Source: an uncultured Planctomycetota bacterium (GTDB taxonomy: Bacteria > Planctomycetota > Planctomycetia > Isosphaerales > Isosphaeraceae). From it: a stretch of DNA of 64,000 nucleotides. Below, piece by piece: positions 50,131 through 64,000 of the stretch. The notes under the pieces are model-generated. The model was not told the DNA's origin. It worked only from the letters and a program-made list of their open reading frames with translations, and did not search any database. Numbering within the stretch: position 1 is the first letter of the stretch; each line of letters begins with the position of its first letter. Both the position numbers and the translations under genes were made by a program. The DNA lies in assembly GCA_963823665.1 (NCBI GenBank), contig CAWGMQ010000007.1, positions 256,001-320,000 on the forward strand. Direction: 5' to 3'.

Positions 50131-53100
50131 ATGCCGATTTACACGCGTCAGTATGCCGAGGTCTTTGAGAACGCACGGGCGGCCGAGGATGCGGTCCGGC
50201 GGTATCTCACGCTCGTGGAGACTGACCTGCGGGAGACGTCGCTCTTGGCGATGGCTTCCTGGCAGGACGCGGGGATTCCTCGTGATCTCTGGAAGCCGGC
50301 GCTGCCGAATCTGTTCCGGGTGGCGGCGGGGCTTCAGGAGCCGTCGTTCGGGCGGTGGAATGGCATGCTGCACGCGCTGCGCGAGGCGCTGGCCTGCGTG
50401 GGGACGACAAGCGAGGCGGCACGGTCGCCCAGTGCGCTCATCGCCATTCTCGACTGGCTGCGGACCCCGGCCGAACTGGAGGCGATCGAATCGCTTCGGG
50501 CGCTGGCGCCGCTGCTGCACTACAGCCTGCCGGCGCGGGCGAGCCGGTGGGATGCGATCAGCCTTTCAGTCTGCCTGCGCAATCGGATCGCCCACGACGC
50601 GGCCGGGGACGAGGCGTGGTGGGCCGCGATCGTCCCCATGGTACGCTCTCTCTCCGCTTCCTTTGCGGCTGTGCCGCCATGCCTCGAACGCGAGGGGCTG
50701 GTTTATCCCCAGCCGTGGTTCCTCGAGAGGCAGGGGATCTGGCATGCCTTCAGCGGCATCCGCGGGGAATACGCTCTCTTTTCCTCCATCGGCGGACAAT
50801 CGCTCCGGGTTTCGCTCAACGAGACGGAGCTGATCGATGCGTTCCAGCAGTTGCTCGGCCAGGCCGAGCTTCAGCAGTCTTCGTTTCGAGAGCTGATGAA
50901 GCGACTCGCCCCGGAGGAGCACAAGGGGGTGCTCGTCGGCGACTTTTTGCTCGGTCCGCCGGCCGCGGAAGGGGGGTTTGCGGTCGTGCACCGCGGCTAC
51001 CAGCTCAGCATCGAGCGAAAGGTTGCTCTCAAGGTCTTCCCGGATGCGCTCACGCAGTCGAAGCGGGCGCTCTTGCGGAGGGAAGCCGAACGGCTGGGTG
51101 CGTTCAATTCGCCGGAGATCGTCCGGCTGATCGGCTTCTACGAGGAGATTCCCTGGACCGCACCGCGCGAGATCAGCCTGACGGGTGAAGCATGGTTCGA
51201 GGCGCTCAAGAAGGGATCCGGATTCAAAACGTTCCTGGCTATGGAGTGGGTCGGCGGCGAGGATCTTGCGGCGGTCATCGACCGTCCGGCCGCGAATCGG
51301 CCCCCGATCGACGTTCTGATCGGCTGGTTTGAGACGAGCGCCCTTGCGCTGGCGAAGGTGCATGCCGCGGGGCTGACCCATATGGATGTGACTCCGAACA
51401 ACATCCGGGTCACGCCCGAGGGGCAGATCAAGCTGATGGATTTCGGGATCGCGCGCAGCGAGACCGAGCGCCAGGACTTGATGACCCGCACGAGACTGGG
51501 CGTCGGCACGCCGGCCTACATGGCTGCGGAGCAATTTGACGACCAGGGCAACCGTCAATCGGATGTTTATTCGCTTTGTGCCACGTTTTATGAGTCGTTC
51601 ACCGGCCGCCGGCTGTATGACCACGATCGGATCGACCTTCAGGAAGTGAATCGCCGGAAGCGGGAGGGAATCGCGCCTGAGTCACCTCGGAGCATTCGGT
51701 CCGAGATTCCGTGGGAGGTCGAGACGCTTCTTCTCGGGGGCTTGCATGTCGAGCCGGGGCTCCGGCCCACGAGCCGGCAGGTCGCCGACGATTTGCGGCG
51801 AATCATCGAGAATCGGCCGATCAAGTACCGGCGGCCGCCGCTGCATCGCCGGGTGCGGCTGTGGTATCGCCGGCACCAGGCGGCGGTTCGGGTGGCGGCG
51901 CCAGCCTTGGCTGGGCTGTTGTTCGTGGCGATCGTGCTTGGGGTTTTCTGGCGGGGAGCTGAGAGGCGATCGGGCGAGCTGGGGAAAGAGGTTGGCACGC
52001 TTGCAAAGAAGGCGGAATCCGAGTCAAAACGGGCGGAAACGGAGGCCGGGAGGGCGAAAGACCAGGAACGGCTCAAGTTCTTGCAGCAATACATCGCCGA
52101 TATGAGGCTGTTGCCGGGGTGGTGGAAGGACGCCCGCGTGGACCTCATTCGCGACCGATTACGGCCGTATGCCACCGCGGCCACCTACGATCCTCGCGGG
52201 TTTGAGTGGTATTACTGGGACCGCCTGGTGAGCGCGGCAAGCGCGACTTGGAAGCCCGAGGATCGGACCCGTTCGCTCGACTGGTCTGCTGACGGCAAGA
52301 CGCTCTATGCGGCGGACGTGAAAGGGCGGGTACTCGCCTGGAACCGCGCAACCGCGGAGAGCCGGCAGGTTCGCGGCGCGGGCTCGGGTGCGATCGCGGT
52401 GACCTCCGCTCCGAGCGGTTCGAAGCTTGCGATCACGACTGCTGCGATCAGGCGCACGGCGGGCGAGCCGCCGGAGTCGTCGTCGATCGAGATCATTGAC
52501 ACGGAGACGGGCGGCGAGCTGCGCAAGATCACGACACGGGGGTTTGGCTTCCGAGCCGCGGCGTTCGGCCCGAACGGCCGGCGAATCGTGACGAGCGATG
52601 TCGCGACCAATCTTTGGGTGTGGGATGCCGTGAGCGGGAAGCCCGAGGTCGACCTGGTGCACAACCCGAACGCACGCCGGGACTTGACGAACCCGATGGA
52701 GGTGCTTGGCGCCCACGACCCGCATCAAGGGCCGGTGCACGCGCTGGCGTTCAGTCCGGTCGATGCGACCGTGGTTGCCAGCGGCGGCGACGATGGGGCG
52801 ATCGGGCTCTGGAACACTCGAACCGGGCGGCACCTGGGATGGCTCGGCGAGCGACGCGGCAGTGTGGCCTCAGTCTCCTTCAGCCGTGACGGCACGAAGC
52901 TGGTGAGCCACTCGCTGCCAAGACCGGCCGGTCAGTTCCATCGCGTGGCGATCCCCGCGGAAATCGACGTCTGGCGAGTGCAATCGCATGAGCGGATTCG
53001 GCGGATTGAACTGGCCGATGAGTACGAGGGTATCACGTCCGACGGGTTCTCGATTCGCAAGGGGAACTTTCGCGCCGACTTCGTGGGAGACGATCGTTTG

Positions 53101-56100
53101 ATCGCCGCGGCGATCGGGAACGTGGTTCGGGTCTGGGATCTCGCAACGGGGTTCGTCGTCAAAGAGCTTAAAGGGCATACCGCGACGATCAACGCCCTGC
53201 GCGCCTCGCCTGACGGCGTGCTCGTGGCCAGCGCGGACGCGGGCGGCGAGGTGCGGATCTGGAACCTGAACGAATCCGAGGAGATGGAGACAATCCGGCA
53301 ATTCGAGGGGCCGGCCCGCTCCGTCGCGTCATCTTCCGCTGCCGGCGAACGCCTGGTGGCGTTGTATGAGTCACCGGGCAGCACGTCATCGAACGGCACG
53401 GTCGATCCGAGCGAAAGCCGCAATCTATATATCTTCAACCGGTCGGGTGGGGCTGAAGCGCCGCCCGAGAGGGGAAGCGGTTACTACCTCGGCACGGCCC
53501 AATCGCCGGCAGGGGGCCGCATTGCCACGTTTGACATGCTCAAGGAAGAGATCATCGTGTGGGAAACTGCGAATGGAAAAGTGATCCGGGTTTTTCCCGT
53601 GAAGCGAAAGGAAGAGGAGCCGAAGGGCAGGAACCGCGGGGGCTCACGTGAGAAAACGGACGTGCGTAGTTTGGCGTTTCGCGATGAAAAAGATTTGTAC
53701 GCGGTGACGGGCGAGGGGCTCTGGCGATTGCGGGTAGACTCGGGCGCTCTTGAGACGGTCGCGGGCCTGGCGGTCGGCTCGTCTCCGAAAGAGGCGACAC
53801 CCGACTTGCTTGTCCTCGAAGACGCGGTGATGGCGCTTTGCTTTTCACCAGACGGACGGATGGCCGCAGCGGGCACCGGTGGGAGGCAGGTGATCGTTTA
53901 CGATGCGGGCACATGGAAGGAGCTCGCGCGGTTGCGCGGCCATTCGCGTGGGATCACCGGGATCGCGTTCTCGAGTGATGGCCGGCGGCTCGCCAGCAGC
54001 AGCGGACGATATTTCCGGCTGGGGGCGGCGGAAGCGAACGACCGGCCGGGCGAGGTGATCGTGTGGGACACGACGACCTGGGAGGACTGCCTGCGACTGA
54101 CTCATCCCGACGCGTCTGAGTTTGCGGGGGTCGCATTCGGCGATCGCGATCGCACGCTCTTCGCCGCGGCGAATCCCGTAACAGTTAGCCCGGGCAAGCT
54201 TCCCCGCGGCGAGATTGTGCGCTGGGTGAGCACGGCCGGCGTCGCGCGGATCGCGGCAGCGGCCAATGCCGCGCGTTCGACGGCCGATTCGGCCGCTCGA
54301 GTGCGTCTCCGCGAGAGCAAGCCTGTTGGATTGCCGCCGGCTTCAACCAAGCTGTCGCGTTCGGGCGAGACAAAGCCGCTCGAAGGGGCCGTATTCCGCT
54401 CACCCGGCATGTTCATGGGCATCGCCGGCGTCACCGGCTTCACGTCGGTGGCGGTTCATCCAACCGGCGAGCTGATCGCCGCGGCAACGATCATCAGCCG
54501 GCTGATACTCTGGGATGCTCGAACTCAGGAGGTTGTGGCGGAGGCCGTTCTTCCGCCGGTTTCCTGGCCGGGATACGAGATCACGTTTAGCCCGGACGGC
54601 TCGCACTTGATCTGCACCATCGGTGACGACGCGTTCGTCCGGTCGATTCCAGGCCTGGGCGAGGCAAATTTCGAGGACGCCGCGCTGAACTTGAGACCGG
54701 AGATCGCGGCGACGATACGCCGGATCAAGATCGGCGGCGAGACGGTTCCTCTCCGACCCGCCTACTCGATGGAGGGTGCTTCACCGTTCAGCCGGGACGG
54801 CCAGCTCCAGGCGCTGGCCACGCGGGGAGACTCGCCCGCCCTCGAGGTCATTTCGGTGCCGAAGAAGTCGAAGTTGTTTTCGGTGCCGCTTGCAGGCCCG
54901 CCGATCCAAGTTGGCGTCTCGGCTAATGGCAAGGTCGCTTATGCCGTCACCCGGCCCAGCGTCGCCAAGGGAGGCGCCTGTGCCGGCCTCGGCGCTCGAG
55001 CGATGGGAGGTTCCGGGCGGGAAACCGCTCGGGGTTACCAAGGGCATGATGAACCTGGTCGCGCTGTCTCCGGATCTGGAACGATCGCTTGAGATGGCGA
55101 ACGGGATCGAGCTGTATGCGCGAACTATCCACGGGGCAGCGTGCGGCGGCACCGTTTGCCACCGAGGCGGGTTTTAGGGGGGTCGCGTTTTTCCCGGACG
55201 GCGAGCACGTGGCGACGTTCGGAGGTCAGAACTGGACGAAGGTATGGAAGATATCCACTTTGCTAAAGATCCCTGAGAACTTGCTGTTCCGCGCGGTGGG
55301 AACGCTGCTCGTCGCGCCTGACGAGAAGACGATTGCCTACGTCGATGCGTACGGCTGGCCCGCGCTGTACGACGTGGCGCGGCACCGAGCGAGCAAGCTG
55401 GCTCTCGACACCGCGCCGCGGGTTGGGGCAGCGAAGGCCGGCTCACGGCCGCGAACGCGCGGAAGCGACAATGCTGCACGTATGCATGGGCTGGTGCCAT
55501 GGCACTTCACGCCCGACGGACGAACGCTCGTGGCTGCTGCGTTCGCCGGAAGCGCACGCGCGAATCCGACGGCGTTCGACGTGAATCGCGGGGTCGAGGT
55601 TCCGATCGAAACGCTGCCCGAGGACGTCCGCCCGCCCGGTGCTCCCGCGGGCCAGAGCTTCCGGGGGTTCTTGCTTGCGATGCACGCAGCGTCCGACTCG
55701 AAGATGTTCTACTTGCTCCAGAGCATGCAGCAAGGCGCACCGCGAGGGGTTCGGAGCGAGCCGCCGTATCTGCTGTGGGATGGGGCCCAATCGCATACCG
55801 TACCGGCCCTGGGCGAGACGGCAGGCGGATTGAAGTTGCCGTGCTTCAGTGAGCGAGGCACTTTCGTGGCGGGTTTGCTGCCGGGAATCCGCCGGCGCAC
55901 CAAAGGCGCGGTCGAGCAGTCGGGCCCGGCGGTTGTCGTCCTTTCGACGAGCGACGGCAAACTCGTTTCGCGAATTCCATGCGGAAGCGATGATGTGATC
56001 TCGCTTCGGTTCACAGGCGCCGAGGACGCGCTGTTATTGCACCAGCGAGTTACGGGCAAGGCGACGGCGCTGGGGGAATTCTCACTGGCCGCGTTTGATC

Positions 56101-56990
56101 CCAGGAGTGGACGCGAGCTAAATCGACGCGCCGGCCTCCGGACCACTTTCCTGGCAGTGTCGGACGACGGAGGGCGTCTGGCTTCGCCGGTTGAGGGTGC
56201 GATCTTGATTGAATCGCCCGCAACGAAAACCGAGCTTGGGCGGATCGCGTTTGACGACTGGCCGATGCAACCCGTTGCCTTCCTGGCGGCCGGCACGAAG
56301 CTGATCACTACGGGAGCAAACGGGGCGATCCGGCTCTGGGACAGCTCGGGCCGTCCGATCGCGGTTCCGCGGCTCCAGGAGGTCGTTCCAATCGTCGAGC
56401 CGGTTGCACCCGCGACCAAGGCGAACGTGCCCGTGCCAAGGGCTCCGGCCGCACCGCGGCGACCAGCAACGGCGAAAGCTGGAAAGCCGAGCCAAGCGCG
56501 ACTGGCCGACGAGCTGAAAGAGATGGCCGTGCGTCTCAATGGTTCGCCGCAGGGCGCCTACCGTGGGCGGTTTCCCGCGCTCGCGGCCGGGTGCGAGATG
56601 CTGGCCTCGAAACTGGCGGCCGGTGAGACTCCCACGGCGGATATCGCCAAGGAGATGGAGCGGTTTATCAAAGATGCGAAGGACCTGAAAGAAGAAGGAG
56701 GGAAGCACTCGCCCTTCAAGGACTTCAACACGACGTACACGGATCGCAGCGGGCGCAGCGGACTGCCCGGATACAAGGCCAAGTTCTTTCACGAGGCGCG
56801 TGATCTCTTCGGCAAGACTATGTCCCGATCAAGAGAGACGCCCATCCTGTACGGGCAGCGGCTGTTCGCGGAGATGATCATGACGCTCGAACGGCAGATC
56901 GAGGACCTCACGGGCAAGCTGCCGGATTCGTCGCTGCTGGAGGAATGGCGAAAGGCGGGGCCAGAGAGCGGTGACAAACCGGGAGGGTGA
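50131..56990 (+). CDS. Giant protein: HEPN-motif N-domain, Ser/Thr kinase, TM helix, WD40 propellers, helical tail; two frameshifts at ~54960-55120
   Basis: LRNRIAH; AEGGFAVV, VALK, HMDVTPNN, DFG, GTPAYMAAE; GH...WD repeats; ORF 54776..55177 bridges 50131..55092 and 55089..56990. Confidence 0.82.
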
Positions 56991-57073
56991 TTTCGCGTTG
57001 GCGGGACGCTCAGATATTTCCGGGCGCCAGGGTTTGACCGGAACACCAGAGACAACGTCCAGGATGGCGGTAA

Positions 57074-59005
57074 ATGGCGAAATCGCGTGGCACGGGTGAT
57101 TGGCTGTTACTCGAGGAGAAGCTGGAGCGAGGCGACCCTTCGTTCGTGGACGATCTGCGATCGTTTCACGACGCCGAGGTCCTGGCCGGGTTTGCCGCTC
57201 GCTGGTTTGGGGACAAGCGGCCGGCATCGCGGCGCGTGATGCTGGAATACCTCGATCGTCCGCTGAACGCCTTTCGGCATGAGGCGCTGGTGAAGCGGCT
57301 CTTCAAGGCGGCCGAGGCTGCCGGCGATGATGAGGTCATGGCGCGGTTCCTGGTGCTTTTCGACCGCTCGGTGCGCCGGGAGGAGTGGCGGAGGCGGCAC
57401 GTGGAATGGGCGAAGGTCAAGACGGAAGCGGCCGCGCAGGAACTCATGGCTCACTGGCGTGCCCTGGGCTTTGACAGCGTTCAATCCTTCAACTGGCAGC
57501 GCGGGACGATCCAGATTCGCGGTGACTGGCACGAGGTGCGTCTTGGGATGCCTACACGCACCGCGATGCCGCGCGACGAGATGAAGCATCGAAATCCTCG
57601 CACGGGCGAGCTGATTTCGGACATCAACACGCGGCTCCAGAAGTGGTTCGGAAATCATCGCGTGGGAGAGCCGGTTCCACGCCGGGTGCAAAAGCTGATC
57701 GAGCGGCTGCGTCTGTTCTCGGTGGCCACGCGGCAGTACTTGAGGCGCAGGGCCTGGCGCTACTTCCGGCGAATGGGCAAGACGAACCCGCAGCGGTACG
57801 TCGCGGCCATGTCGCGGGCGCTGGAGCGATACACCGATGGCGACGTTGCCGACGGACTCGCGCTGATTGATAACTGGGGTCTCATGCATGCGCTTTTTCA
57901 TCGGAGCGAGATTCTGACGGCAAAGCCGGGAGGGTGGGTTCCGACCGAAGGGCGCTCGCTTGCAGAGCTTTCACCCGCGCCGATCTACGAACGGCTGTGG
58001 GAGCAGGCGCCGCGGGCTCTTGTCGAGTTGCTGTTTGCCGCGCGGTGCCGGCCAGTGAGGCAGTGGGCCGTCCAGATGATTCGCCGGCATGATGGCGCCC
58101 GCGCGGCCGTCAAGCTCGACGAGCTGATCGGTCTGCTCGCTCATGAAGAGGCGGACGTCGTGGCGCTGGCGGTCGAGCTTTTCCGGGAGATGAAGGGCAT
58201 CGACACGCTTGCTGTCGATCAGTGGATAGAGCTGGTCGAGAAGGCTAACCCCTCGGTGCTTGAGTGGATCGTCGAGCTGCTGGAGAGGTTCTTCGATTCC
58301 GAGCGGGTGACGCTTGCGCAGGTGGTCAGGCTTGCGCGATGCCGCAGAGTGCCCGTTGCGCGGGTGGGTTTGAAGTGGCTCTCGAACAAGGTGCCGCAGC
58401 ATGCGGCGGCCGACACCTTGCTGCTGGGTCTCACGGAGGCGGAGTGTGAGCCGCTGCGCGGGCAGATCGTGCGATTGGTCAGGGAACGACTGGCGGCAAC
58501 CACGCGGTTCGATCCAAGCTGGGTGCTCGAGTTTCTGGATAGCCGGCATGCCGACGTGCGCGCCGAAGGGATCGAGTGGTTCCGGTCGGAATCGCGTGCT
58601 CGCGACGACGTGACGATCTGGCCACGGCTGATGGAAACTCCCTACGACGATGTGCGCCTGTTCTTGATCTCGGCGCTGGAATCTCGCGTAGGCGGGCGCG
58701 ACGTCGACCGCGCGGTATCTCACGGGTTGGATCCGGAGGCGTTGCGGCTGCTCTGGGCGTCGGTGCTCCTGAACATCCAACGGGGTAGCCGGGCCAAGCC
58801 GACGGTCGTGCGGCAGCTCGTGCGGGCGATGAAACGCAGGCCGGCGGATGCGGAATTGGTCTTGCCGATTCTGGCTGTGGCGCTGCGATCGTCCCGCGGG
58901 CCTGAGCGCCGGGTGGGGCTGGCGGCGGTGGCGGAACTGGTCGAGGGGGATGTGCAGACGACGAAGGTACTCGCCGCGATTTTTCCGGAGTTGAAGTTAC
59001 TGTGA
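57074..59005 (+). CDS. ARM/HEAT-repeat-like protein, retron-associated
   Basis: 643-aa all-helical Leu/Arg-rich ORF, FSVATRQYLRRRAWRYFR, LDSRHADVR; first gene of the RT locus. Confidence 0.8.
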   Translation: MAKSRGTGDWLLLEEKLERGDPSFVDDLRSFHDAEVLAGFAARWFGDKRPASRRVMLEYLDRPLNAFRHEALVKRLFKAAEAAGDDEVMARFLVLFDRSVRREEWRRRHVEWAKVKTEAAAQELMAHWRALGFDSVQSFNWQRGTIQIRGDWHEVRLGMPTRTAMPRDEMKHRNPRTGELISDINTRLQKWFGNHRVGEPVPRRVQKLIERLRLFSVATRQYLRRRAWRYFRRMGKTNPQRYVAAMSRALERYTDGDVADGLALIDNWGLMHALFHRSEILTAKPGGWVPTEGRSLAELSPAPIYERLWEQAPRALVELLFAARCRPVRQWAVQMIRRHDGARAAVKLDELIGLLAHEEADVVALAVELFREMKGIDTLAVDQWIELVEKANPSVLEWIVELLERFFDSERVTLAQVVRLARCRRVPVARVGLKWLSNKVPQHAAADTLLLGLTEAECEPLRGQIVRLVRERLAATTRFDPSWVLEFLDSRHADVRAEGIEWFRSESRARDDVTIWPRLMETPYDDVRLFLISALESRVGGRDVDRAVSHGLDPEALRLLWASVLLNIQRGSRAKPTVVRQLVRAMKRRPADAELVLPILAVALRSSRGPERRVGLAAVAELVEGDVQTTKVLAAIFPELKLL

Positions 59006-59029
59006 GTTCGTGTGATGATTTGAACCTCA

Positions 59030-59267
59030 ATGATCTCGCGGGCGGCCGGGTCGGGAACCGAGAACCTGAATGCTGCGGCGTTCCGCCGCGGCCGACATTG
59101 GCCCAGCCTTTGCGTCCCCGAGGCCGTTGTTCTTTCGCTGCCGGTGCACCGTCGCCGTGGCACTGAGCCGACGGACGGTCTGCCACAGCGACGGTGCACC
59201 GGCAGCTCGGTGAACGACCTCGGTCCGTGCCTCGAAGTCGGTCCGGCCCGGCCGCCCGCGGGATCAT
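59030..59267 (+). ncRNA. Putative retron msr-msd RNA
   Basis: 25-nt inverted arms 59030-59054 / 59243-59267 (two G-U pairs), small hairpin 59072-59092, long hairpin 59137-59206 with a perfect 19-bp base; in the only large gap of a retron RT operon. Confidence 0.8.
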
Positions 59268-59298
59268 CGTCCTTTCTGCTGCGGAAGAACATTTCAGC

Positions 59299-60994
59299 AT
59301 GAATCTGACGCTTCAATATCGGAGGCGAAGTGCGATCACGGAGGTGCCGGAGGGTCTGGATGTCACGCTGGCGCCGAACCTGCGGCGCGACCGCGTGAGC
59401 TTCGAAGGGACACTCCGGCATCCGGTGCGGTTTCGGGAAGCGATGGGGGCGCTGCACGACGTGGTGGTGAGCGACTTGCGATACCAGCCGCGCGACAAGA
59501 CGGCTTACGAGGCATACAAAGCCGAGCAGCGGAATCGCGAGGCAGGAATTCGCCGTCAGGTGGAGTCGCAGGAAAGAGCGGCGATTCTCAAGCAAGCGTT
59601 GCCCGAGTTGCCTGAGGGTTATGTCGCGGACCTCGAACGGCGCTACCGAAAGCTGCGCAAGAGCTACTGGGGGGCGCGGCAGAAGTACTCGAATTACCTG
59701 AGCCGGCACGATCCGGAACTCTGGCGGCTGCTCTTTCCGTGCGACCCGGTGATCACGGTGGCGCCGGATTGCCTCTTTTTCGAGTGTTTCAGCGCGGACG
59801 AAAGCAGCTACGGCTGCTTGACCGTGGAGCGCGCGGCGTTCGAGCGCGAGCGCGACGTCGCGCTCGGGACGACGAATGTCGATTATTCGTGGGCCTTATA
59901 TGAGCACTTTCAGAAGCTGCGGAGCTATCGCGAGACGCGGTTTGCGATTGATCCTTCTGGGTTCGAGGTCGCGGTTGACCAGGCCGGCGATTATCGCGAG
60001 GAGAAGATTGACTTGCCGGGGGGTTGGCTGCGCGGGTTCATGCAGCTTCAGGCGGCCATGAGCTTGCCGATGCGCAGGGTGGGGATTTCGCGTGAAGGGC
60101 TTTATTCGATCCTGGCGTTTCTCAGGCGGCACCGGGCGGCGAAGAGCCCGCGGGCGCTGCGGTTTGAGCTGGAGCGCGGGCGGCCGCCGGCGATCGTGCT
60201 GGAGCCGTGGGAAGAGCGGATCACGCTGCACGGAACTGCTTATGGCGGCCCGCGCGACGAGACGATTCGCGTCTGGGGGCGCGACCGGCTGCGCCCTGGG
60301 ACGCCTGCTGCCGCTACTGGACGAAGCGGAGGTTTATCTGCTGGGTACCGGTCTGCCGAGCTTCTGGTCGATTCGGATGGGAGAGATGCGGCTGCTTCTG
60401 GGGCTTTCGGGCTGGACGGCCAACGACTGGACGGGCACCGCTGCGCTTGATCAGCTCGGGCCGCCGGCCGATCCGAGCGATGCGCTGCTGGGCGACATCG
60501 CGGCGACGTTCGAGAAGTCGCCAGCCTTGACGTTCAGCCAGATTCGTGAGCGAACCGGGGCTGCGCCGGCGTTTGTCGCGGCGGGGTTGTGCCGGCTGGC
60601 CTCGCTGGGGCAGGTCATTCACGATTTGCACGCGGGCCTGTATCGATGGCGGCAGGTCATGCCGGTGGCACTTTCTCTGGATGAGCTTGGGCCCGAGAGC
60701 CCGGAGACGGTGGCGGGTCGCGAACTGTATTACCGGCGGACCGTGCGGGTTGACCGCGATGTAAAGCGGGGCGACGGCCTGCGCATTCTTGAGGGCGAAT
60801 CGGGAGGGCGGGTGGTCTCGCTGTTGCTTGATGCGGATTGGCGAATGGTGCGCGGGCGCTGCACGTGCTCGCACCATTTCACAGGTGGGATGCGACGTGG
60901 GCCGTGCCGGCATTTGCAGGCGCTTCGCCTGGCCACGACTGGGGCGAAACAAGCGTCGAGCGTCGAGGCCTGGTTCCAATCGTTTTTCCAGTAA
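59299..60994 (+). CDS. SWIM zinc-finger protein, retron-associated; frameshift near 60295
   Basis: DPVITV...FFECFSADESSYG, GTTNVDYS, GWLRGFMQLQ; C-terminal CTC-x12-CRH SWIM motif. Confidence 0.82.
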
Positions 60995-61005
60995 CAGGGC
61001 AGGGC

Positions 61006-62594
61006 ATGGGCTGGTTCGCGCGGGTGTTGCAATGGTTATTGGGGGGCCGCGATCGCGGGGCCAGCCGCGGTGCTGGCGCGTCGCCTGCGGTCGAGGCGGA
61101 CCCGTACTTCGCCGGGTCGCCCGCGCCGGTCATCAAGAAGTCGAAGAACTTCGAGCTTGATGCGGGTGCGTTCTTGCCGATCGCGCGTGAAGAGATTATC
61201 GGAACGGCGCGCGGGCGGAATCTGCTGGCGAATCCGTGGTTTGGAAGGCGTGATCAGATTCCGCCCGTTAGCGATCGGCGTACGGTGCTCATTGACCGCG
61301 CGATGGTGACTCAGGGGCTGATCACTCCGGAAGAGCTGGCCGAGATTCACAGCGCCGGCGAGGAGATGGAGCGGGTCAGGCCGAGCATCGCTGGTACGGA
61401 GCATCAGGCAGCGCTCGCGGGCTCTGCGGCGGTCGAGGCTGAGAATGAGGCCCGCTTGCGGCTCAAGGCTTTGAAGAAGGAAGAGGCTGCGCGGCGGCGA
61501 GAGGAGCGTCAAGCGGCGATTGCGCATCGGCGAGCGACCGACATCGTTTTTCTGGGCGCGGGGTTTCGGCGCAATTGCACGACCGACAGAGCGATCTCGA
61601 TCGTCTGGCCGCGGAGGGGCTGCCCTCGCTGAGCACGCCTGGGGAGCTGGCGGCGGCGCTCGGGCTTACGATTCCGCGCTTGCGCTGGCTGGCTTTCCAC
61701 AGCGAGGCGGCGACGGTTTCTCACTACATCCGGTTCACGATACCGAAGCGCAGCGGCGGCACGCGCACGCTGGCGACGCCGCACCGCACGATGGCGCGAA
61801 TGCAGCGCTGGATCTTGACCGAGATCGTGTCGAAGCTGCGGGTGGAATCGCATGCTCATGGTTTTGTGACCGGGCGCAGCATCCTGACGAATGCTCGCGA
61901 GCACGCGAACCGGGCGATTGTGGTGAATCTGGATTTGAAGGATTTCTTTCCGAGCATCGGGTTTCCGCGGGTGAGAAGTGTTTTCAAGAGCGCCGGATAT
62001 TCGCCGGCCGTGGCGACGATTCTGGCGCTCCTTTGCACGGAGTGCCCGCGACGGGCGATTGAGTACGACGGCGTGCGGTATTTCGCGGCGACCGGGCAGC
62101 GCGGGTTACCGCAAGGGGCGTGCACGAGCCCGGGGCTTTCAAACCTGGTGGCGAGGCGGCTGGACCGGCGTCTGGGCGGGCTCGCGGGCAAGCTGGGTAT
62201 CAGCTATTCGCGGTATGCAGATGATTTGACTTTTTCCGGCAATGGCGAACTCGAGGGGCGCGTCGGGTACTTGATGGCACGAGTGCGGCATATTGCGGAC
62301 GATGAAGGCTTCGCCGTGAATGAGGCTAAGAGCCGGGTGTTGCGGCGCAATACGGCGCAGATGGTGACGGGCCTGGTGGTGAACAGCCGGCCTGGGGTTG
62401 CCCGGGCGGAGGTGCGGCGGCTGCGGGCGATTTTGCATCGGGCGCGGACGGAAGGATTGGAGCGCCAGAATCGGGAGGGGCGGCGGGATTTTGTTGCCTG
62501 GCTGCGCGGGAAGATTGCGTTTGTGGCGATGGCGCGGCCGGAGGTGGGGGCGAAGCTGCTGGGTGACCTACAGAGTGTGCTGGGGAGGAGCTGA
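61006..62594 (+). CDS. Retron-type reverse transcriptase (Mx162-like, long N-terminal extension); frameshift near 61557
   Basis: IPKRSGG, AHGF, NAREH (region X NAxxH), LDLKDFFPSI, LPQGACTSP, YADD, VTGLVVN (region Y VTG). Confidence 0.93.
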
Positions 62595-62641
62595 GCTTTG
62601 AGAAGCCCTGCCCGATCTATCGCGACGGATAGCGCGAACGC
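62595..62641 (+). repeat. 47-bp imperfect direct repeat, copy 1 (copy 2 at 63952-63998)
   Basis: 40/47 identical by manual alignment, including ACGGATAGCGCGAACGC. Confidence 0.8.
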
Positions 62642-62706
62642 TCGGGCAGGGTCACAGATCGATCCGTCAGATGAAGGACGACGGCGTCAACGGGGAGCGC
62701 GGGGAT

Positions 62707-62916
62707 TTACTTGCTTTTATGACGACGACCGCCAATTAGCAGCAGGCCACCCGAGAGCAAGGCGATGGCACCCGTCGCCAAGCTGGGATCCATCTCAGGG
62801 GCCGTCGATCTTGCAACGGCCGTGGCCGAGCAAGCGCTCAGAACGAGTACAAATCCAACGGCCCATGAAACCGTTGGCAAAGCCTTTGGGGCCCACTTTG
62901 GCGAATCTGGCTTCAT
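62707..62916 (-). CDS. Tiny secreted protein with PEP-CTERM/VPEID-like sorting tail
   Basis: AAGGAGGT RBS; signal-like helix; APEMDPS + TM + RRHKSK. Confidence 0.65.
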   Translation of the reverse strand: MKPDSPKWAPKALPTVSWAVGFVLVLSACSATAVARSTAPEMDPSLATGAIALLSGGLLLIGGRRHKSK

Positions 62917-63637
62917 CGACAATACCTCCTTGGTAATTGAGGGGAACTCCGGGGGCAATGCGCCGCGGACGTGTGTTCATCATGATACTGCATCAAAACT
63001 GAAACCTGAGCCCAACATAAGCAATTGTTCTAGAACGTTCAACATGCTCGCACAGATTTCGGATCCGAACGAATCAGGACGGAGCGCAGAGGTCCTTGAT
63101 GTGGTGCCGGGGCGGTGGCGCACATGCGATTTCGACATCGCGGGAGGCTTCGCACGTGTCGCGCGTTGTCGAGGTAGGCACGGGCTCCCTCGTGCCGGTC
63201 TTGCCGCAACAAGTCTTTGAGGATGTAGCGTCTGCCAGCGGGTTCTACGAGGTCAAGCTCGCGGGCGGAATCTCGAGGCTGATGCTCGAGGACGCAAACC
63301 AGCCTCTAACAGAAGCGAACGAAGGAAACGATGGGGGAGACAATTCAACGGCATTCGTGATTCCTGGTATCATCACAAGCCGACGAATTACTCTCGTGGG
63401 GAGTCATCGGCCAATGTCTGATTCGGTTCGAGTGCTGCTGGACTCATTCGATGCTCTCTCGGAGACTGAACGCGCGGAGGGCTCGCGACGATGAGGTTCA
63501 CGGTCACGAAAGTCGTCGACGGCGCGTTCAGCTCCGATGAAGTTCGCCGGCTCACCCATTCGCCTTCGCAGGATGGAATCAGGAGCGGGGGTCAGAAATT
63601 CGTGTTATGCCTCAATAACGAGGACAGGACGGGGGCG

Positions 63638-63940
63638 TTAGCGGCGTGGTGCCGCTGACTTTGAGCCGCGGCGCGGCGCCCGCGCCAGAAACGCCGACGG
63701 AGCGATGGCGAAGTGCTCGGCGAGCTTGAGGACCTGCCCCTTGGTGAGGGAGCGTGCGCCGGAGAGGACTGCCGAGATGGTGGACTGCGCGATCCCGACC
63801 GATTTTGCCAAGTCCGTCTGGCTGAGACCGCCCGCTCGCATCAGCTCGCGAAGTACGTCGGACTCGGAGACATCCGCGATCGGGACGTGCGCCTCGTCGT
63901 AGCCGGCGATCAGGTCGGTCAAGACGCCGACGTAGTGCCG
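63638..63940 (-). pseudogene. HigA-like HTH antitoxin lacking its N-terminus
   Basis: YVGVLTDLIAGYDE...LSQTDLAKSVGIAQSTISAVLSGARSLT; upstream frame hits TAG inside the 47-bp repeat. Confidence 0.7.
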
Positions 63941-64000
63941 GGTCGAAACTGGCTTCGAAAAGCCCTTCCTGATGTTTCGCTACGGATAGCGCGAACGCCA

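What the first reader, a model, noticed from the sequence alone, without database searches (positions are those of the whole stretch)
59030..59267. Unannotated msr-msd RNA inside the operon, 1.7 kb from its RT
Seen: ATGATCTCGCGGGCGGCCGGGTCGG (59030-59054) pairs with CCGGCCCGGCCGCCCGCGGGATCAT (59243-59267) over 25 bp with two G-U pairs. They enclose a short hairpin GCTGCGGCG-TTC-CGCCGCGGC (59072-59092) and a long hairpin with a perfect 19-bp stem (59137-59155 / 59188-59206), extended inward by GTGGCA/TGCCAC. This matches the a1/a2 + msr stem + msd stem plan. Only 11 bp separate the SWIM stop from the RT start, so the usual RT-proximal position is unavailable. Inference: G near 59055 is the 2'-5' branching residue and msDNA is templated from roughly 59110-59240.
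Basis: partly seen in the sequence, partly recalled or inferred. Interest (0 to 1): 0.85.

Follow-up and report, generated by a model that had tools for sequence, protein, structure and literature searches.

The report
Relocated, sometimes multiplied retron template RNA
This is the template RNA gene of a known kind of bacterial reverse-transcriptase system (a type XIII retron); in one branch of planctomycetes it sits one gene upstream of its usual place, and some relatives carry two or three different copies, so one enzyme may make several different small DNAs.

Summary
59030-59267 is the msr-msd RNA gene of a type XIII retron (HEAT-ARM, SWIM, RT). The family has 153 distinct copies in the loci fetched. 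It covaries (17 of 28 pairs change on both sides) and follows one RT subclade (106 of 112 loci). msr stems tolerate G-U, while msd stems tolerate A-C, which is G-T in the copied DNA. Correction: the likely branch G is 59062, opposite G59237; 59055 is not conserved.

The ARM-SWIM position is confined to one planctomycete clade; all 52 loci outside it keep the RNA beside the RT. 15 of 92 complete loci carry two or three copies with similar frames and different msd stems, which points to a move by duplication and loss. A SWIM homolog models as a PCNA-like clamp fold. This locus has one copy. Its SWIM and RT genes each carry a frameshift, probably assembly error, since rpoB is broken too. No msDNA or transcript was shown. 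Earlier scan notes reported two-RNA type XIII retrons and the clamp fold on other DNA.

The parts
57074..59005 (+). HEAT/ARM-repeat accessory protein, 643 aa, intact
   Evidence: PADLOC HEAT-ARM_XIII PDLC02922, E 3.8e-190; ORF
59030..59061 (+). a1 arm (outer part 59030-59054, inner part 59057-59061)
   Evidence: inner pairs covary across homologs
59062..59062 (+). predicted 2'-5' branching G, first unpaired base after a1, opposite G59237
   Evidence: invariant in 19 of 19; contexts GAGA 112, GAGC 30, AAGA 7 of 151, but that anchor required AG by construction; role inferred from PMC6868368 and the Millman preprint
59072..59092 (+). msr stem-loop, highly conserved, rich in G-U pairs
   Evidence: 99.5% of cells paired; G-U 204 vs A-C 2 in 90 sequences
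59093..59117 (+). 3' part of msr and probable msr/msd overlap (conserved motif at about 59111-59117); no consensus stem found
   Evidence: the RT stop point here is inferred
59118..59223 (+). msd hairpin: conserved basal stem 59118-59128/59213-59223, sequence-variable long stem 59137-59162/59181-59206, conserved apical loop
   Evidence: basal stem A-C 25 vs G-U 1
59105..59237 (-). predicted msDNA (about 121-133 nt; 3' end uncertain between 59105 and 59117)
   Evidence: inference from branch geometry; folds as one long DNA hairpin at about -51 kcal/mol; not observed
59237..59267 (+). opposing G59237 and a2 arm (59238-59267)
   Evidence: G at this column in 145 of 151; pairing
59299..60994 (+). 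SWIM protein (PCNA-like fold, winged helix, CxCx12CxH finger at 60860); frame broken near 60295
   Evidence: PADLOC SWIM_XIII in two frames, E 3.6e-119 and 1.1e-55; fold from intact homolog L002
61006..62594 (+). type XIII retron RT with long N-terminal extension; YADD at 62214, region-Y VTG at 62364; frame broken near 61556
   Evidence: PADLOC RT_XIII best hit, E 3.1e-143; RVT_1

Best explanation
The element is the msr-msd template RNA of this operon's type XIII retron. It is transcribed on the + strand, probably within the ARM-SWIM-RT message, and cut out (inferred). The a1/a2 arms pair. The RT, made from a gene 1.7 kb away, binds the msr stem and primes from the 2'-OH of G59062. It copies from G59237 back through the msd hairpin to about 59105-59117, giving a 120-135 nt branched msDNA (inferred from retron biochemistry, not observed).

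Sequence and covariation show that the msDNA frame is fixed while a 25-bp perfect duplex varies freely in sequence. I infer that RT-msDNA assembles with the SWIM protein, whose clamp-like and winged-helix domains could hold that duplex without reading its sequence, on the ARM scaffold. The complex most likely acts as a DNA bait or sensor. I put anti-phage or toxin-antitoxin-type sensing at about 0.45, a non-defence stress or DNA-maintenance role at about 0.35, and other roles at about 0.2.

The upstream position most likely arose by duplication of the RT-proximal RNA in one planctomycete clade, followed by loss of either copy. The confidence given is for identity as the cognate msr-msd, not for the downstream role.
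For: Operon identity. Structure beyond chance.

Covariation on 90 sequences under 80% identity: 94.5% of cells paired vs 84.4% shuffled; 17 of 28 pairs with double changes; score 0.334 vs 0.151 shuffled and at most 0.094 when slid. A copy's arms pair with each other, not with another copy's (a1/a2 median score 37.5 vs 13; msd 48.5 vs 11.25).

Strand asymmetry: msr stem G-U 204: A-C 2; msd basal stem G-U 1: A-C 25; variable stem 22: 50 in 136 of 151 parsed copies.

Linkage: the RNA is present in 106 of 112 unique loci with RT at 55% identity or more, and in 1 of 55 below. It is absent from 10 of 10 SWIM-only loci with 600 nt held on both sides. An RNA-motif-only scan returned 94 loci, 87 with an ARM, SWIM or RT hit nearby. 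In L092 the ARM and SWIM genes are inverted and the RNA stays with the RT. This genome holds one copy. The other retron-like RT in the genome (L084) is RT_other-type with no RNA hit.

Position on the tree. Clamp fold: Z 18.2, rmsd 2.9 A over 221 residues to PCNA.
Against: No msDNA or transcript was observed. SWIM and RT are frameshifted in this assembly, and the window copy is the only one of 151 with an extra A after the branch G, so this locus could be decaying. The profile was built from these loci, so hits among them are partly circular. Shuffle controls and wobble counts ignore relatedness. The tree is a quick one (SH-aLRT only). Loci were sampled by best hits and an exact motif, so frequencies are not population estimates. 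7 of 94 motif loci show no retron gene in the DNA held; L220 has about 4.5 kb upstream and 3.3 kb downstream without one. The clamp fold comes from a model of a homolog (mean pLDDT 77.6), and binding to msDNA is untested. Only 3 of 26 loci showed defence-gene hits in their flanks (longest ORFs only, no baseline), which gives little support for a defence role.
Confidence: 0.9

Rival explanations
1. The RNA is a real msr-msd, but this particular locus is a decaying pseudo-retron: SWIM and RT are truly broken and no msDNA is made here.
For: One frameshift each in SWIM (2 nt short against homologs) and RT (1 nt short), plus the unique extra A in the RNA. The same-genus genome G001 has no RNA match and only a partial SWIM match (84% complete).
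Against: rpoB is also split across frames in this assembly; rpoC and valS have long open frames, so 1 of 3 essential genes tested is broken. There are no in-frame stops, ARM is intact, YADD and the zinc finger are intact, and the RNA stems are perfect. SWIM is broken in 5 of 72 homologs, four in MFD-titled and one in an ont-titled record, which I recall or read as long-read assemblies.
Confidence: 0.15
2. The element is a cis-acting structure (terminator, attenuator or REP-like palindrome) that tunes ARM vs SWIM expression and is not an RT template.
For: It fills the gap between two genes, and GC-rich genomes carry palindromic repeats (a different one lies at 62595-62651).
Against: It is single-copy in 16.5 Mb. 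It is the same family whichever gap it occupies. It follows the RT when the other genes invert or SWIM is missing (L092, L099). There is no U-tail terminator at it. The msd stems show DNA-strand wobble bias, and weak structural relatives sit at the RT-proximal site of distant type XIII loci.
Confidence: 0.04
3. Extra copies in relatives are neutral by-products of duplication or retrotransposition; only one copy per locus works, and the position has no consequence.
For: 77 of 92 complete loci manage with one copy. Multi-copy state is scattered (9 changes on the tree, at least 4 forced). RT-less msDNA-like repeats are reported in Nannocystis (one sentence and two reference titles in PMC6868368).
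Against: In 20 within-locus pairs the frame is 92% identical and the msd stem only 58%. The three units of L203 each keep their own arms and paired, different stems and score 120-154 bits. Both arms must have changed together, which implies selection on each copy. I did not test stem pairing separately for every extra copy.
Confidence: 0.35

Closest known systems
Retron type XIII, RT clade 10 (Mestre et al. 2020, PMC7736814; Retron-Mxa1/Mx162, Mxa2/Mx65, Sau1/Sa163, Nex2/Ne144)
   Same: RT with N-terminal extension, SWIM/winged-helix protein, HEAT-ARM gene in front, msr-msd with a1/a2 arms and opposing G residues. The priming context GAGC, listed for Mx65 in PMC6868368, occurs in 30 of 151 copies.
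   Different: The RNA lies between ARM and SWIM, not next to the RT. There is no separate WGR gene or second ARM gene. Relatives carry up to three different RNA copies. Myxococcaceae-type loci score only about 20-30 bits with my model, so they are related but not the same sequence family. The SWIM N-terminal part models as a clamp fold, not the transposase-like origin that paper suggested.
UG27 reverse transcriptase ncRNA arrays (bioRxiv 10.64898/2026.09.22.753630, passages read)
   Same: One RT with two accessory proteins and several RNA units with a conserved frame and a variable central hairpin, some in neighbouring intergenic gaps.
   Different: UG27 is not a retron, lies in prophages, and has longer arrays and demonstrated cDNA. 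Here there are 1-3 units, each with retron a1/a2 arms, and the motif was not found in viral contigs or plasmids.
Engineered retron arrays (bioRxiv 10.1101/2023.07.17.549397, search listing only)
   Same: By title and listing, arrays of retron templates.
   Different: Synthetic; the copies here are natural.

Membership tests
Retron type XIII | RT of clade 10 with YADD, region X histidine and region Y VTG | tested here: met
   RT_XIII is the best PADLOC hit (476 bits vs 359 for the next). YADD at 62214, HAHGF at 61851, VTG at 62364. Region X is not a literal NAXXH. Placement is by HMM, not against the reference tree.
Retron type XIII | Linked protein with C-terminal SWIM finger CxCx12CxH and winged helix | tested here: met
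   Motif at 60860; finger in 65 of 67 intact homologs; winged-helix matches at residues 392-455 of the homolog model.
Retron type XIII | Dx7[D]x4Ex30-32Dx37E motif in the SWIM protein | tested here: met
   D148, D156, E161, D194 and E234 are invariant in 51 of 51. The last spacing is 38-39, not 37; a strict pattern matched 32 of 67.
Retron type XIII | HEAT/ARM gene in front of the SWIM gene | tested here: met
   PDLC02922, E 3.8e-190
Retron (general) | ncRNA with a1/a2 arms, opposing unpaired G residues, short msr hairpin(s) and long msd stem | tested here: met
Retron (general) | ncRNA contiguous with the RT gene | tested here: not met
   1738 nt and one gene apart. It is contiguous in 57 of 92 relatives and in both places in 8, so I read this as a derived arrangement, not as exclusion.
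Retron (general) | RT-dependent 2'-5' branched msDNA is produced | not testable with these tools
   Needs bench work; no RNA holder was listed.
Published type XIII RNA families (Firmicutes, Ne144, Mx162, Mx65) | Match to one of the published covariance models | not testable with these tools
   The models are not held and the supplement of PMC7736814 could not be read. No Nannocystis exedens locus was retrieved.
Anti-phage retron | Toxic effector and/or defence-island context | tested here: inconclusive
   No known toxic domain in ARM or SWIM by Pfam; defence hits near 3 of 26 loci, without baseline.
PCNA/beta sliding clamp | Two-domain clamp fold | tested here: met
   Homolog model residues 35-374 vs PCNA: Z 18.2, rmsd 2.9 A, 221 aligned, 7% identity; Foldseek E 1.2e-7.
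PCNA/beta sliding clamp | Closes into a ring around duplex DNA | not tested
   No complex prediction was obtained.

The most novel reading that the evidence does not exclude
This subclade is a natural multi-template retron. Its RNA gene is repeatedly duplicated and repositioned within the operon. The copies keep the RT-binding frame but diversify a 25-bp duplex, so one RT makes several different msDNAs. A PCNA-fold partner holds them as interchangeable DNA baits, which broadens what the system senses.
Probability: 0.3. Interest if true: 0.75.

Novelty: new variant of a known kind. Interest (0 to 1): 0.45.

Why it matters
Type XIII contains the first retrons ever found, yet I found no paper giving its function. 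This work supplies a base-level model of a widespread type XIII RNA family (branch G, template limits, which stems act as RNA and which as DNA) and intact loci in cultured strains for testing. Two practical points follow. De novo searches limited to a few hundred bases upstream of the RT would miss this RNA in 27 of 92 complete loci. Natural two- and three-copy loci would show how one RT serves several templates and which part of msd can be swapped freely, which bears on retron-based editing. The identification of a single msr-msd in a type XIII operon is by itself ordinary.

Tried and rejected
Rfam: nothing near threshold.

G59055 as branch point: rejected.

Sigma-70 promoter scan of 56900-62800: 0 sites, 0.9 expected; uninformative for this host.

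Expression and frameshift check: no RNA holder listed; 4 of 5 listed DNA runs were laid and their contigs cover neither break nor the RNA.

Conserved fourth gene: none upstream (51 candidate ORFs, largest cluster 3) or downstream (49, largest cluster 3).

Plasmids and viral contigs: no match.

Ne144 comparison: a scan with a Nannocystaceae RT returned 43 loci, none from N. exedens; 18 of them were searched with the model, best 29 bits.

Experimental census (PMC10849725): 17 type XIII rows, no planctomycete, and no ncRNA motif text in the readable supplements. One file was too large, so a tested Sandaracinus member of this family is not excluded.

Careful tree: unfinished after three runs, so only the quick tree is used.

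Clamp-domain dimer prediction: no verdict, the job never ran.

Rows dropped: 6 of 96 sequences before alignment A3; 35 duplicate and 2 truncated copies of 188; 15 of 151 not parsed for the variable stem; 23 duplicate RT loci of 190 and 75 of 167 incomplete or RNA-less loci before the tree, 6 of which served as outgroup.

Literature searches without a paper on this position, natural multi-copy retron RNAs or a clamp fold in type XIII: (open-access library only).

Full report
Observation. The 261-nt region folds far better than shuffles (z -9.4, 0 of 200) and holds the only two perfect stems of 14 bp or more in the window. Rfam has no match.

Context. The flanking genes are a type XIII retron: HEAT-ARM 57074-59005, SWIM 59299-60994 and RT 61006-62594 (PADLOC E 4e-190, 4e-119 plus 1e-55, and 3e-143). 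The window lies in a 16.5-Mb, 12-contig assembly. The closest named relatives of the proteins are planctomycetes, mostly Isosphaeraceae. SWIM and RT each change frame once, near 60295 and 61556. rpoB is also frame-split in this assembly, rpoC and valS are not, and SWIM is intact in 67 of 72 homologs. Assembly error is therefore the likelier cause, but the public contigs laid do not cover the breaks.

The family. I fetched 80 loci by SWIM, the best 80 of 565 by RT and 94 by an RNA motif alone. They hold 188 copies, 153 distinct, 151 with full flanks. Among 167 unique RT loci the RNA occurs in 106 of 112 with RT identity of 55% or more, and in 1 of 55 below. Of the six misses, four are cut by contig ends (L020, L091, L094, L120), L117 has a divergent copy (48.9 bits), and L008 shares its record title with L202, which holds two copies on another contig. 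None of 10 SWIM-only loci has it. 87 of 94 motif-found loci have a retron gene in the DNA held; some of these loci are two views of one contig. A covariance model finds one copy in this genome and matches in 12 of 61 genomes searched including this one. It also gives weak hits at the RT-proximal site of distant type XIII loci (17-49 bits).

Structure. On 90 sequences, 94.5% of cells pair against 84.4% in shuffles, 17 of 28 pairs show double changes, and slid registers collapse. These controls do not correct for relatedness, and the structure was drawn from these sequences. A copy's arms pair with each other and not with another copy's. The a1/a2 helix runs inward to A59061-U59238, leaving G59062 opposite G59237. 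A59061 and G59062 are invariant in alignment A1 (19 of 19), while the base at 59055 is G in 48 of 151. Unpaired G residues on both strands right after the helix are the retron hallmark (Millman preprint 10.1101/2020.06.21.156273, passages), and GAGC is the Mx65 context (PMC6868368, passages). So 59062 is the better branch candidate.

A strand test separates the two halves. A stem used as RNA tolerates G-U on the sense strand, whereas a stem used as the copied DNA tolerates sense-strand A-C. The msr stem shows 204 G-U and 2 A-C; the msd basal stem shows 1 and 25; the variable stem shows 22 and 50, against 215 and 87 for a1/a2. This is indirect evidence that msd acts as complementary DNA. The predicted product is 121-133 nt and folds as one long hairpin.

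Position and copy number. Of 92 complete loci, the order is ARM-SWIM-RNA-RT in 55, ARM-RNA-SWIM-RT in 22, RNA in both gaps in 8, tandem upstream in 4, tandem downstream in 2 and triple upstream in 1. On a quick RT tree all 27 upstream-only and all 8 both-gap loci fall in one planctomycete clade of 40 (SH-aLRT 98), together with 5 downstream-only loci. All 52 loci outside it are downstream-only. The simplest reading is an RT-proximal ancestor, a duplication into the ARM-SWIM gap, and repeated loss of either copy. I did not run a formal test of this order. Copies in one locus are each other's first- to third-nearest relatives in the frame in 19 of 20 pairs (median 92% identity) but differ in the stem (58%). 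That points to repeated recent duplication or homogenisation of the frame with fast stem change. Sampling was by best hits and an exact motif, so these fractions are not population frequencies. The ARM stop lies 28-103 nt before the branch G in 11 single-copy upstream loci, which leaves little room for an intergenic promoter; co-transcription and processing are inferred.

Partner proteins. A model of the intact SWIM homolog from L002 (mean pLDDT 77.6) matches PCNA clamps over residues 35-374 (Z 18.2, rmsd 2.9 A), followed by a winged helix and the zinc finger. An earlier scan note prompted this test. The acidic motif that PMC7736814 likened to transposases is invariant and lies inside this fold. 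Ring formation and DNA binding are untested. A sequence-blind holder for a fixed-length, variable-sequence duplex fits the msd pattern, but this is inference. Defence context is weak: 3 of 26 loci have PADLOC hits in their flanks (no baseline). PMC7736814 also notes largely vertical inheritance of type XIII.

Comparison with print. PMC7736814 (passages and outline; supplement unreadable) defines type XIII and its RNA families, and its models may already cover this RNA. PMC13712802 (passages and supplement term search) counts 26 planctomycete type XIII RTs and scanned 10 kb either side with those models, without describing position in the passages I saw. PMC10849725 (passages, table rows) lists 17 type XIII rows, none from a planctomycete. 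bioRxiv 10.1101/2024.07.21.604473 (passages) added nothing on this. The nearest analogue for multiple templates is UG27 (10.64898/2026.09.22.753630, passages). Eight searches found no paper on the upstream position, natural multi-copy retron RNAs or the clamp fold; the library lacks most subscription papers. Unchecked notes of this scan report a two-RNA cyanobacterial type XIII retron, a free-standing type XIII RNA and the clamp fold on other DNA; none matched this sequence.

Verdict. The element is real and correctly identified in kind, with the branch G corrected. It is a variant arrangement of a known retron type. The single locus is unremarkable and may carry assembly errors; the mobile, multi-copy RNA and the clamp-fold partner are what make the family worth testing.

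Noticed in passing
L203:4440-5315; also L011, L017, L177, L202, L205, L211, L239, L255: Tandem complete msr-msd units (three in L203), each with its own arms and a different msd stem.
   Followed up: yes
L092 (same contig as L175): ARM and SWIM are inverted relative to RNA-RT; the RNA stays with the RT.
   Followed up: partly
L099:4063-7990; L223; L224: RNA and RT without a detected SWIM gene (L099 keeps ARM).
   Followed up: no
L220:4485-4672; L188; L199: Strong family copies (132-156 bits) with no retron gene in the DNA held; possible free-standing RNAs acting in trans.
   Followed up: partly
L008:6717-9554: Type XIII RT fused to four GYF_2 domains; its ARM gene and two RNA copies appear on another contig of the same record (L202).
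   Followed up: partly
L005:6090-7709; L033; L062: WGR plus PARP-catalytic gene directly after the RT in three loci.
   Followed up: partly
L025, L046, L048, L050-L052, L054, L057, L064, L068: SWIM homologs with no RT, ARM or RNA hit nearby: an RT-free branch of the clamp-fold protein.
   Followed up: no
G000:C7:519467-520501 (L084): A second retron-like RT in this genome, best hit RT_other/outgroup, with no copy of this RNA.
   Followed up: partly
window 62595-62651 and 63952-63998: A palindromic repeat pair (47 nt, 85% identical), one copy directly after the RT stop; REP-like or terminator-like.
   Followed up: no
window 50131-56990: Large Ser/Thr kinase plus WD40 gene that seems to continue across a frame change near 55090; probably another assembly indel.
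   Followed up: no
window 62707-62958 (-) and 63638-63922 (-): A small hydrophobic protein with a C-terminal sorting-like tail (resemblance recalled, no Pfam hit above cut-off) and an HTH_3 protein that may be an antitoxin.
   Followed up: partly
G000:C3:1630335-1633986: rpoB is split across two frames in this assembly.
   Followed up: yes
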